Virus record (IMG/VR): IMGVR_UViG_2880395615_000002
Strand: one strand, 5' to 3'
From: a virus
Lineage: Duplodnaviria > Heunggongvirae > Uroviricota > Caudoviricetes
Length of the DNA stretch: 64,000 nt
The number at the start of each line of letters is the position of its first letter. The first letter of the stretch is position 1. Of the stretch, positions 39,001-42,000 are shown piece after piece. The position numbers were made by a program.

Positions 39001-42000
39001 TTCGACGCGATACGGAACGAGATTTCCGCTTTTGTGCTGGTTGCACACCACGCATTGCTTGTGAATATTGCGTTCATCAAATCGGAGTTGAGGTGTCGCA
39101 GCAGTTGTCCGGTAATGTCCGGCATCCCACTGAGCAGACGTGAGCGTTCCGCACGAGATACATGGTAAGTCGCGGTCTCTTTCTCTGATGAAGGCGTTTA
39201 CGGCTTGTTGGGCTTGTTTAATCCAGTAACTGCGGGGCTTTAAGGCGAGTTTTCGAATCTTCAGTTTATCTTTCTGTTTCTGCTCCTCTCGTCGTCGTTT
39301 CTTCTCTGCTGCCTTTTCTGCCTTTTCCGCTTTTTCGCGTTCTTTACTTCGTCGTTCGAGTGCTATCTTGGTTCCACAAATCTCATTACACCAATATTGA
39401 TTTTGATATTTTGGTATAAACCATTCATTGCAACATTTACATTTCCTTCGATAGATTCGCATAAGTGCTCCTTTCGTTGCCGGAAAAATCACCGTAATAC
39501 TTATCTCGGGCTTCTTCAGCAACTAGTACCGCTAACTCCAGATCATCAAAGCATCCGAAGTGTTTACTCTTGCCATGGAATCCTAGCCTAACATTCCATT
39601 TTTTCTGTCGTTTGTGCCAAGTAACCCCTCTGCAACCTGATTTGCTATTCTTTCGGATCCTTATATTTCTTGAATTTTCTATTGGCAGGCATTCTCTTAA
39701 ATTTTCTGGCCTATTGTCGGTCCTAATTCCATTAACGTGGTCAATTTGACCAGCAGGCCAACGATTATGAGTTATGTAAAAAACTAAGACGTGAGTTTTA
39801 TATCTACGCCCATCTATCATGATCATTGAATAACCGTTGGAATCAAAAGCTCCAGCAACACTATTTAATGCTATCCTTCCCTGAGTGGGAACTTTCCATC
39901 TAAATACCCCGGTAGATTTATCGAAACTTAGTAACTCAAATATCCTTTTAACAGTTAAATCTTCTCTTTTACGGTTACATCGTCTTCGCGCTGGTTTAGC
40001 CATCGCCTTCTTCCTCCGTAATGGTTTTCTGAATTTGGCCACCTGAACAGAGCTCACCAAAGCTATGGATGTCGGTATTTCCACAATACCAAGATGGCGA
40101 AAATAACTGCATGATAAGCCTCAGGGAAAAGGGAAGACACTACCCCCGATAATTCAGAAACAAATCGAAATACATGAACTAAAGAAAAAACCACAACAAA
40201 CAGAAATAGAAATAGAAATAGAAATAGAAATAGAAATAGAAATAGAAATAGAAATAGAAATATTAAAACAGACCACCACATTCCTGATGTCATACTCACT
40301 AAACAATTTTTCGACAACATGGTAGCTCATAGAACGTTATCGTGTAGACACCCTCTGCTACGTATTCGGTGTTCAGTGCAATATCTACAAATACTGGAAA
40401 AATCTAAAATCGAGGCAAGTTTTTGGTGATAACTATAGTTAGACTATATTGACGACCTGATGTGCTGTATGTAATAACTAACAAAAAATATTTTCCATGG
40501 GATTTTTTATTTTAATGAAATGCAAAATATTTTTATCAATAGTTAGTATTATGAAAAACCATTAATTCAGGAGGAAACTTGATTCCAAATTCAACTTCAA
40601 ATAAAGGTTATGTATGCATTGACATGCAGTGTTCGTCAACCTCTGAACCAACAGCTTCTACCTCCAGCAACCGGAGTATTAAATTAGCCGCTTCCACAAA
40701 TGTATATCCGATAACAAGAAACGACTCCGAGCTCACTCTGAACGATTTTCTTGATAATAGCTCTTCTACGTCATCATTGGACTACATTAATGAATTGGGT
40801 TCTCAACTGACGTTAAATGATTTTCTTGACAACATAAAGACAAATGAGGTGGATAGAACATGTACGGATGTGGTAATTAATATCCCACAAGAGATACAAA
40901 CAAATACACAGGAAAATGATTTGTTATTATCCGATAAAAATAATTCAATATGCATTGAAATCGATGAAAGAATTACAAAAATCCTAACATGCAAGCAAAA
41001 ATATCAACTGGACAGCATCATTCATGAAATTATACCAAAAGAGAATGAGAGTGCAGAAACTGTTCTCCATCTTATGAGAGTTCTGAACGATCAATATCAT
41101 CAGGTATATAATCAGTCAGGATGTTTTTATAAAGCCTATATGGCCATACACAATAAAATCGAACAGATACTTCCATATGCGTTCAGAGCCGGAGGCGGAA
41201 TCAGCATTCACTTGCTCATACAGGCATTATTTTTTAATGGCGACTATAACAAATCACCTTCACAGTCTCAACAACCATCTTTATATACATCACCTTCTCC
41301 AACAATAAATACAGAAGCATTCTTAAGTAATGTATTATCACTAGATATAACCCAGGTACGCATACTTGGTGATTTACTATCAGCAACTTTATTTCATGCA
41401 CCAACAATATTCTATCAATATCCTAAACTAATAGATGAAGTTAAGTATTGTATAAGTAATAAAAAAATAACAGGTTCGGTTATAGCACGATTTACTCTAT
41501 GTTTAACAAGTACATTACTAACCATGTCACCACTGTTAATGCTTAATGGAGCAGTTAAAACAGGTAGCATAGTAAGAACTATAGGTAGGGGAGTGAGTTA
41601 TGTTGATATACCATTGGCCTTAGCTATATTAGGTGACTCGTGGTATAAAGCTTATAAACATGGTTCTTCTGATAACCCAAATTCTGCTCAGAAATTTATA
41701 TCGCAAGAAGCGGCCTTTAAAACCACCCAGCGGGTATTAACACAAGGATTAAGTCTGATGTCCTCTTTATCGGGAGCAATCATGCGCTCTCTTGAGAAAG
41801 GCACACCACCACAAATGATGTCTTTATTCATCGTAAACATACTAAATCTATTATTTCATCAAAATCCATATGAAGGGGCATCAGCAAGTGCTAATGCTTT
41901 GAAAAGATCAACTTACTCCCATAATCCGGACATACTAAATACTCAGGCAATAGCTCTTTGTGTTGACCTCCAGCATACAAAAAATATAACCATGCCACTT

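What the first reader, a model, noticed from the sequence alone, without database searches (positions are those of the whole stretch)
40203..40262. Perfect (GAAATA)x10 microsatellite between the HNH/ninG genes and the cargo ORF
Ten uninterrupted hexamer units are a classic substrate for slipped-strand mispairing. The array lies in the divergent intergenic region about 200 nt upstream of the HNH endonuclease start and about 320 nt upstream of the 590-aa ORF. Copy-number change would alter promoter spacing or UTR structure, so it could act as a phase-variable switch. It also creates the spurious FLFLFL ORF at 40063-40320.
Basis: seen in the sequence. Interest (0 to 1): 0.5.

Follow-up and report, generated by a model that had tools for sequence, protein, structure and literature searches.

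The report
Known MLVA repeat VNTR-9 in prophage
The ten-unit GAAATA repeat is real and changes length very fast, but it is the long-known VNTR-9 (TR1, Vhec4, O157-9) marker used to fingerprint Shiga-toxin E. coli, and nothing found here shows that it switches a gene.

Summary
A perfect (GAAATA)x10 array lies at 40203-40262 in an Stx1-converting lambdoid prophage. It sits 199 nt upstream of the HNH endonuclease start and 316 nt upstream of a 590-aa ORF.

It is not new. It is the MLVA locus VNTR-9 = TR1 = Vhec4 = O157-9 (unit AAATAG). Both published forward primers match the window exactly.

Copy number is highly polymorphic: 4-17 in 45 sequences read directly and 4-23 in complete E. coli genomes. 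Sequences with identical 531-nt flanks carry 6-23 units. Published passage experiments give about 4e-5 changes per generation.

The slipped-strand part of the reading is therefore supported. The switch part is not:
- A 6-nt unit cannot shift a reading frame.
- No promoter candidate spans the array, and the best candidates for the 590-aa ORF lie at least 160 nt to its right.
- Predicted RNA folding and ribosome-site accessibility barely change between 4 and 23 units.
- Diverged homologues of the ORF have no upstream repeat.
- In O157:H7 the ORF is replaced by an IS30 remnant 14 nt from the array, yet the array remains hypervariable.

The most likely reading is a neutral, hypermutable intergenic microsatellite. 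Interest is low.

The parts
40203..40262 (.). Perfect (GAAATA)x10 hexanucleotide array. This is MLVA locus VNTR-9 / TR1 / Vhec4 / O157-9, whose unit is written AAATAG in the literature.
   Evidence: for the array. Repeat unit and locus synonyms come from PMC2246123 Table 2, PMC3768571 Table 1 and PMC3321953 Table 1.
40197..40202 (.). Degenerate proto-unit CAAACA at the left edge of the array. It reads CAAATA in other flank haplotypes.
39988..40014 (+). Exact binding site of the PulseNet VNTR-9 forward primer GCGCTGGTTTAGCCATCGCCTTCTTCC. It overlaps the HNH start codon.
   Evidence: The primer sequence is from PMC3321953 Table A1.
40106..40125 (+). Exact binding site of the TR1 forward primer ACTGCATGATAAGCCTCAGG (Noller et al.).
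   Evidence: The primer sequence is from PMC2246123 Table 2.
40263..40276 (.). Right flank TTAAAACAGACCAC, shared by all contexts. In O157:H7 the end of an IS30 remnant follows directly, and both MLVA reverse primers lie in that remnant. In the window the promoter region of the 590-aa ORF follows instead, so neither published reverse primer has a site here.
39437..40003 (-). HNH (HNH_3 plus weak AP2) homing-endonuclease-like gene. It is the first gene downstream of the array on the early-right (pR) strand.
40579..42351 (+). 590-aa ORF of unknown function (phrog_9230). It has a TTG start with an AGGAGG ribosome-binding site and runs opposite to the phage early operon.
40427..40483 (+). 57-nt block that is invariant between E. 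coli and a roughly 7% diverged E. albertii prophage. It contains the two best plus-strand promoter candidates (TTGGTG-16-TATATT and TTGACG-15-TGTAAT). It is the probable promoter/operator of the 590-aa ORF and lies at least 160 nt right of the array.
   Evidence: The candidate scores are not above the shuffle controls.
40021..42854 (.). AT-rich (27-37% GC) inserted module ('moron') between ninE and HNH. It replaces ninF and carries both the array and the 590-aa ORF. The boundaries are approximate.
   Evidence: Prophages without the module have ninE-ninF-HNH, and homology with them ends at window 40016-40020.
40154..40330 (-). Repeat-generated ORF in the SISISI frame. RefSeq annotates it as a 'hypothetical protein' in some records. 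It is judged spurious.
40063..40320 (-). Repeat-generated ORF in the FLFLFL frame. It is judged spurious.

Best explanation
The array is a selectively neutral or nearly neutral hypermutable microsatellite. It lies in non-coding DNA at the upstream end of an AT-rich module inserted between ninE and the HNH/ninG genes of lambdoid prophages.

During replication the nascent and template strands misalign by whole 6-nt units. By established knowledge (not tested here), loops of this size are poorly recognised by E. coli MutS-dependent mismatch repair. Gains and losses of units therefore accumulate at about 1e-5 to 1e-4 per generation.

The result is a length polymorphism that is useful for strain typing and has no demonstrated effect on neighbouring genes. 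It is the same locus as the published MLVA marker VNTR-9 / TR1 / Vhec4 / O157-9. Here it sits in its intact context, an Stx1 phage with the 590-aa ORF, rather than in the IS30-truncated context of O157:H7 for which the typing primers were designed.

Shown: the identity of the locus, the polymorphism, its independence from the cargo gene, and the absence of recognisable promoter overlap. Inferred: neutrality and the escape from mismatch repair.
For: Identity of the locus:
- The unit is AAATAG.
- The TR1 forward primer matches exactly at 40106-40125.
- The VNTR-9 forward primer matches exactly at 39988-40014.
- The synonyms are given in PMC3768571 and PMC3321953.

Hypermutability:
- Forty sequences carry 13 allele sizes from 4 to 17 units.
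- Among 44 sequences with complete flanks, sequences with identical 531-nt flanks carry 6, 8, 9, 9, 10, 11, 11, 14 and 23 units. The window's own flank haplotype carries 7, 10, 11 and 17.
- Record spans in complete genomes imply 5-23 units in the 590-aa-ORF context (23 units read directly in L040).
- They imply 4-16 units in the IS30 context.
- Published data give 6-23 repeats, 15 alleles and a diversity index of 0.90 in 202 German O157 isolates (PMC3321953).
- Published passage experiments give 4.3-4.6e-5 mutations per generation, all single-unit insertions (PMC3777172).

No functional anchoring:
- The consensus scan finds 0 sigma-70 sites in 39800-40800.
- In the weight-matrix scan no candidate spans the array and none exceeds the shuffle controls.
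- Rfam gives no hit.
- Predicted minimum free energy and ribosome-site accessibility are flat from 4 to 23 units on both strands.
- No repeat lies upstream of the diverged homologues of the 590-aa ORF in E. albertii, Salmonella or Providencia.
- The array stays hypervariable in O157:H7, where IS30 has replaced that ORF.
- The ORF is split into two CDS in some O111 strains that still carry the array.
Against: - No expression data were available, so a quantitative effect of array length on HNH or on the 590-aa ORF cannot be excluded.
- The array has stayed pure and present (6 units) in an E. albertii prophage whose flanks are about 7% diverged. That fits frequent slippage purging interruptions, but it would also fit weak selection for keeping a repeat.
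- No relative with 0-3 units was seen among the sequences examined. However, the sequences were collected with probes flanking or including the array.
- The measured rate of about 4e-5 per generation lies within the range reported for true contingency loci.
Confidence: 0.85

Rival explanations
1. The array is a tunable spacer (a rheostat or phase-variable element). Its length sets the distance and helical phase between upstream elements in 40021-40202 and the promoter of the 590-aa ORF at about 40423-40475. Alternatively it modulates H-NS nucleation over this AT-rich module. Either way, slippage would produce lysogen subpopulations with different expression of the cargo gene.
For: - The array lies in the divergent intergenic region upstream of the 590-aa ORF.
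- It is hypermutable (PMC3777172).
- It is kept in E. albertii despite about 7% flank divergence.
- The module is 27-37% GC, which is typical of H-NS-silenced DNA.
- The ORF's homologues occur only in enteric bacteria with type III secretion and sit next to nleF in E. albertii. Host-interaction genes of that kind are often variably expressed.
- A known precedent exists (recalled from memory): the TAAA tract upstream of the nadA promoter in Neisseria meningitidis.
Against: - The array lies at least 160 nt upstream of the best promoter candidates and is not inside any -35/-10 spacer.
- Diverged homologues have no upstream repeat.
- The array is equally variable where the ORF has been deleted and where it is split into two CDS.
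- The allele distribution is broad and unimodal, with no helical periodicity.
- No regulator site was identified in the left flank.
Confidence: 0.08
2. The array acts at the RNA level within the early-right (pR) transcript. As (UAUUUC)n it is G-free, unstructured and carries one YC dimer every 6 nt. It could therefore serve as a length-dependent loading site for Rho, or as an Hfq or RNase E site, and so tune read-through into HNH-ninG-ninH-Q and then late-gene and stx1 expression.
For: - Gene order and orientation place the array in the untranslated stretch of the pR operon just upstream of HNH. This is inferred from the lambdoid architecture seen.
- The array is predicted to be largely unpaired, with mean unpaired probability 0.5-0.7.
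- On that strand its composition is G-free, which can be read directly from the sequence.
Against: - About 2.8 kb of untranslated, AT-rich antisense RNA already precedes it, so extra Rho loading at the array would add little.
- N-modified polymerase resists Rho (established lambda biology).
- There is no Rfam hit.
- The only terminator-like hit nearby is weak and not significant: 2 found against 0.7 expected.
- Predicted accessibility of the HNH ribosome site changes only from 0.20 to 0.165 between 4 and 23 units.
Confidence: 0.04
3. The repeat encodes part of a real small hydrophobic protein (the (FL)n or (IS)n frame). Its length, not its presence, would vary with unit number.
For: - ORFs of 85 and 58 aa span the array.
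- PGAP annotates the (IS)n frame in some genomes.
- The older EDL933 annotation placed the VNTR 'inside ORF Z3935/Z3936' (PMC3321953).
- A 6-nt unit keeps the reading frame.
Against: - There are no hits in NCBIfam or PHROGs.
- All three minus-strand frames of the repeat lack stop codons by composition alone.
- No ribosome-binding site was evident.
- The start codons (40320, 40330) lie right of the O157 IS30 breakpoint at 40276, so they are not conserved where the array persists.
- Annotation is inconsistent among near-identical records.
Confidence: 0.02

Closest known systems
MLVA locus VNTR-9 (= O157-9, TR1 of Noller et al. 2003, Vhec4 of Lindstedt et al. 2003) of E. coli O157:H7
   Same: - The 6-bp unit (AAATAG/GAAATA) is the same.
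- The left flank, including the start of the HNH gene, is the same.
- Both published forward primer sites are exact matches.
- The 14-nt right flank is the same.
- The locus shows the same hypervariability.
   Different: In O157:H7 an IS30 remnant follows 14 nt after the array and carries both reverse primers. In the window the original sequence follows instead: the promoter region and the 590-aa ORF, in an Stx1-converting phage. The published primer pairs therefore lack a reverse-primer site here and would presumably score a null allele.
Neisseria meningitidis nadA upstream (TAAA)n tract (recalled from memory)
   Same: It is a short-unit repeat that lies upstream of, not inside, a core promoter and changes length by slipped-strand mispairing.
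   Different: For nadA, the regulator sites flanking the tract and length-dependent expression have been shown experimentally. Here no flanking regulator sites were found, the distance to the promoter candidates is at least 160 nt, and no expression data exist.
Haemophilus influenzae hmw1A/hmw2A 7-bp repeats and hifA/hifB (TA)n promoter repeats (recalled from memory)
   Same: They are intergenic simple-sequence repeats near divergent or downstream genes that are classic contingency loci.
   Different: The hif repeat lies between -35 and -10. The hmw repeats lie between mapped promoters and the start codon and give graded expression. Neither geometry is seen here.

Membership tests
MLVA locus VNTR-9 / TR1 / Vhec4 / O157-9 | Tandem 6-bp unit AAATAG | tested here: met
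   The unit is given in PMC2246123 Table 2.
MLVA locus VNTR-9 / TR1 / Vhec4 / O157-9 | Published forward primers anneal immediately left of the array | tested here: met
   TR1-F matches exactly at 40106-40125. VNTR-9-F matches exactly at 39988-40014 (sequence from PMC3321953).
MLVA locus VNTR-9 / TR1 / Vhec4 / O157-9 | Published reverse primers anneal right of the array | tested here: not met
   TR1-R gives no match in the window with up to 3 mismatches. VNTR-9-R gives no exact match in the window. Both lie in the IS30 remnant present only in O157-type loci. The array itself is orthologous: the left flank and the 14-nt right flank are identical. The window therefore holds the same locus in an untruncated context.
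MLVA locus VNTR-9 / TR1 / Vhec4 / O157-9 | Copy number varies among closely related strains | tested here: met
   PMC3321953; PMC3777172.
Simple-sequence-repeat contingency (phase-variable) locus | Hypermutable repeat tract | tested here: met
   PMC3777172 gives about 4e-5 per generation.
Simple-sequence-repeat contingency (phase-variable) locus | The tract lies inside a coding region, with a unit length that is not a multiple of 3, so that slippage shifts the frame | tested here: not met
   The unit is 6 nt and the array is intergenic. The ORFs that span it are judged spurious.
Simple-sequence-repeat contingency (phase-variable) locus | The tract lies within a promoter (in the -35/-10 spacer) or between a mapped regulator site and the promoter | tested here: inconclusive
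   No promoter-like site spans the array. The best candidates lie at least 160 nt away and do not score above shuffles. No experimental transcription start sites were available.
Simple-sequence-repeat contingency (phase-variable) locus | Tract length changes expression of the linked gene reversibly | not testable with these tools
   This needs reporter or transcript measurements. In silico folding shows no length dependence.
Simple-sequence-repeat contingency (phase-variable) locus | The repeat is conserved as a feature of the regulated gene across homologues | tested here: not met
   Homologues of the 590-aa ORF in E. albertii (71% identity), Salmonella and Providencia have no upstream microsatellite. 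The array persists without the gene in O157:H7.

The most novel reading that the evidence does not exclude
Array length acts as a heritable, reversible rheostat in Stx-phage lysogens. By changing spacing, helical phase or H-NS nucleation upstream of the 590-aa ORF it would alter that ORF's expression. By changing Rho or RNA-binding-protein loading on the pR transcript ahead of HNH-ninG-Q it would alter late-gene and toxin expression. The 590-aa ORF is a possible uncharacterised type III secretion effector. On this reading, the marker used for two decades as a neutral typing locus would be a contingency locus of a toxin-converting phage.
Probability: 0.07. Interest if true: 0.55.

Novelty: already known. 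Interest (0 to 1): 0.1.

Why it matters
As it stands this is mainly a bookkeeping result. The repeat is a named, experimentally characterised VNTR used in the standard O157 MLVA typing scheme.

Two modest practical points follow:
- The array is not specific to O157. It belongs to a module found in lambdoid prophages, including Stx1 phages, of O111, O145 and other STEC and of E. albertii.
- Both published reverse primers sit in an IS30 remnant that is absent from this untruncated context. This could contribute to the high null-allele frequency reported for VNTR-9 (31.7% in PMC3321953), although that paper's own analysis of oversized amplicons found IS3-family insertions. It also means that whole-genome-based in silico MLVA should anchor on the 14-nt right flank instead.

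If length did affect expression, which I consider unlikely, it would be a rare simple-sequence contingency locus in E. coli, sitting on a toxin phage.

Tried and rejected
- Sigma-70 consensus scan of 39800-40800: 0 sites against 3.7 expected in shuffles.
- My own weight-matrix scan: the best hits score 8-9 bits, within the shuffle maximum of 9.0 ± 1.5. None includes the array in its spacer. The best minus-strand hit (TTGTCG, 17-nt spacer, TATGAC; 40317-40289) is weakened in E. albertii and lost in O157.
- Rfam at a permissive E-value on 39800-40800: nothing.
- RNA folding with 0-23 units on both strands: no length-dependent structure.
- Pfam, NCBIfam and PADLOC on the 590-aa ORF: nothing. PHROGs returns only families of unknown function.
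- AlphaFold2 on a 19-sequence alignment of the 590-aa ORF: mean pLDDT 39. This is too poor for fold searching, so no fold search was run.
- The paper of Vogler et al. 2006 on O157 VNTR mutation rates could not be retrieved. PMC3777172 was used instead.
- I considered and dropped the idea that plus-strand (AAUAGA)n RNA is an Hfq (A-R-N)n sponge. No promoter candidate would transcribe that strand through the array.
- I considered Fis, IHF, Lrp and CRP consensus matches within the unit by eye and found none convincing. This was not a formal test.

Full report
**Observation.** The window carries ten uninterrupted GAAATA units at 40203-40262. Tandem Repeats Finder reports 40198-40262 with period 6, 10.8 copies and score 123. 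This is the strongest short-period array in the 64 kb. A three-unit probe matches nowhere else in the window, and no match is expected in 100 shuffles. The array is real and is not a chance feature.

**Setting.** The region belongs to an Stx1-converting lambdoid prophage. On the minus strand lie stx1B (36500-36769), stx1A (36779-37735), Q (38233-38715; Phage_antitermQ), ninH, ninG (38851-39522; Pfam NinG) and an HNH_3/AP2 endonuclease gene (39437-40003). Further right on the same strand lie ninE, dam (43034-43561) and ninB.
- The closest phage records are SH2026Stx1 (99.9% identity) and AU6Stx1 (98.9%), both Traversvirus. They have the same gene order.
- A 590-aa ORF (40579-42351) runs on the opposite strand. 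It has a TTG start after AGGAGG.
- Prophages that lack this ORF have ninE, a hypothetical gene, ninF and then HNH directly. Homology with them stops at window 40016-40020.
- The stretch from about 40021 to 42854 is 27-37% GC, against about 50% for the backbone. The array therefore lies at the upstream end of an inserted AT-rich module.

**Identity.** A literature search for the unit found the TR1 locus of the O157:H7 MLVA scheme: unit AAATAG, forward primer ACTGCATGATAAGCCTCAGG (PMC2246123 Table 2).
- That primer matches the window exactly at 40106-40125.
- TR1 is the same locus as Vhec4, O157-9 and VNTR-9 (PMC3768571 Table 1; PMC3321953 Table 1).
- The PulseNet VNTR-9 forward primer (PMC3321953 Table A1) matches exactly at 39988-40014.
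- Neither reverse primer has a site in the window.
- In O157:H7 loci homology ends 14 nt right of the array, after TTAAAACAGACCAC. An IS30 remnant follows. The remainder of that query matches IS30 copies in thousands of E. coli genomes, including K-12.
- Both reverse primers sit inside that remnant.

The window therefore holds the known locus in an untruncated context. The O157 typing locus is a derivative in which IS30 replaces the 590-aa ORF.

**Variation.** I read the array directly in the window plus 44 relatives: two phage records, six complete E. coli genomes, 35 IMG/VR contigs and one E. albertii genome.
- Forty sequences gave 13 allele sizes from 4 to 17 units. Occasional variant units (GAAACA, GAAATG, GAAGTA) occur near the ends.
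- I grouped the 44 sequences that have complete flanks by identical flanks, 215 nt to the left and 316 nt to the right. One haplotype carries 6, 8, 9, 9, 10, 11, 11, 14 and 23 units. The window's own haplotype carries 7, 10, 11 and 17.
- In complete E. coli genomes the intact context occurs in 244 genomes (O111, O145, some O157 and others). Record spans there imply 5-23 units. Twenty-three units were read directly in strain 7_15_5C.
- The IS30 context occurs in 281 genomes. Sampled spans there imply 4-16 units.
- Published work reports 6-23 repeats, 15 alleles, a diversity index of 0.90 and 31.7% null alleles in 202 German O157 isolates (PMC3321953).
- In serial passage the rate was 4.3-4.6e-5 mutations per generation at this locus, all single-unit insertions (PMC3777172 Table 2).

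**Is it a switch?** Several tests bear on this, and none supports it.
1. A 6-nt unit keeps the reading frame, so frameshift switching is excluded.
2. The ORFs that span the array are by-products. All three minus-strand frames of (TATTTC)n lack stops. The ORFs have no family hits. PGAP calls the (IS)n frame in some records only, with a length that tracks the array. Their start codons lie right of the IS30 breakpoint, so they are lost in O157:H7 although the array persists.
3. The consensus scan found no sigma-70-like site in 39800-40800. A weight-matrix scan placed the best plus-strand candidates at 40423-40450 and 40449-40475. Both lie inside a 57-nt block (40427-40483) that is invariant between E. 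coli and an E. albertii prophage with about 7% flank divergence. These candidates are at least 160 nt right of the array, do not score above the shuffle controls, and do not have the array in their spacer.
4. I folded the minus-strand RNA (the pR read-through ahead of HNH) and the plus-strand RNA with 0-23 units. Between 4 and 23 units the minimum free energy stays within about 1 kcal/mol. Mean unpaired probability changes only from 0.20 to 0.165 at the HNH ribosome site, and from 0.50 to 0.54 at the site of the 590-aa ORF. Rfam finds nothing.
5. Homologues of the 590-aa ORF occur in E. albertii (71% identity, in an islet next to nleF), in Salmonella enterica and in Providencia alcalifaciens. 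None has a microsatellite upstream. The repeat is therefore not a conserved part of this gene's control region.
6. The array is just as variable where the gene has been deleted (O157:H7) or split into two CDS (O111 strains).

Points that leave the door slightly open:
- The array is retained and pure (6 units) in the diverged E. albertii module.
- No relative with fewer than 4 units was seen.
- No expression data exist.

**Conclusion.** The most likely account (about 0.85) is a neutral, hypermutable intergenic VNTR. It is maintained by frequent slippage of 6-nt units, which by established knowledge escape MutS-dependent repair. Its practical value is for typing. A regulatory rheostat acting on the 590-aa ORF, or on read-through into HNH-ninG-Q, remains possible at a few per cent each. 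The locus is already known, so interest is low.

**By-products of the check:**
- The finding that the O157 typing locus is an IS30-truncated derivative of this module, which could contribute to VNTR-9 null alleles.
- The observation that the 590-aa cargo protein is confined to enteric bacteria with type III secretion. Its structure model was too poor to use (pLDDT 39).

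Noticed in passing
window 40579-42351 (+); loci L043-L051: The 590-aa ORF has no Pfam, NCBIfam or PADLOC match. Homologues occur only in E. coli, E. albertii (71-93% identity), many Salmonella enterica serovars and subspecies (48-51%, 648-685 aa) and Providencia alcalifaciens (51%). All of these are enteric bacteria that I recall as carrying type III secretion systems. In E. albertii the 71% homologue sits beside nleF and an AvrPphF-ORF-2-like gene. The N-terminus is Ser/Thr-rich and contains the motif LTLNDFLDN twice. It may be an uncharacterised effector. The AlphaFold2 model was poor (pLDDT 39).
   Followed up: partly
L041 3055-4853 and L042 3049-4847 (O111 strains FWSEC0005 and RM9131): In these genomes the 590-aa ORF is annotated as two separate CDS (about 310 and 275 aa). 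This suggests a disrupted gene, although the array (11 and 10 units) is still present.
   Followed up: no
L003 4364-4620; L004; window 40263-40276: In O157:H7 an IS30 remnant begins 14 nt right of the array. Both published MLVA reverse primers (TR1-R and VNTR-9-R) lie inside it. Prophages with the untruncated context, like this window, have no site for either reverse primer and would presumably give null alleles.
   Followed up: yes
window 40427-40483: A 57-nt block is invariant between E. coli and a roughly 7% diverged E. albertii prophage, while the next 95 nt up to the start codon are heavily substituted. It is the likely promoter/operator of the 590-aa ORF.
   Followed up: partly
window 39996-40112 (-): A 38-aa ORF overlaps the HNH start by 8 nt (ATGGCTAA). 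SH2026Stx1 annotates it as a hypothetical protein. It sits where ninF lies in other prophages, and only the last 13-17 nt of it are shared with them, so it looks like a ninF 3' remnant. It is cut short by a stop codon in E. albertii.
   Followed up: partly
window 36208-36421 (-), 52426-52484 (+), 58747-58821 (+): Rfam and ARAGORN find three features. The sRNA STnc100 lies just downstream of stx1B (195 bits). The lambda cIII thermoregulator element is present (88 bits). A tRNA-Arg(CCT) gene may mark the prophage attachment site.
   Followed up: no
window 46404-46481: Repeats of 20 and 39 bp (TCCCTCNTTTTNAGGGA-like) resemble lambda-type origin iterons within the O gene.
   Followed up: no
window 29523-29559 and 29600-29652: Two adjacent 12-bp tandem repeats are present: TTTGCGCAGTTT with 3.2 copies and GATTTCATGATC with 4.4 copies. 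They were not examined.
   Followed up: no
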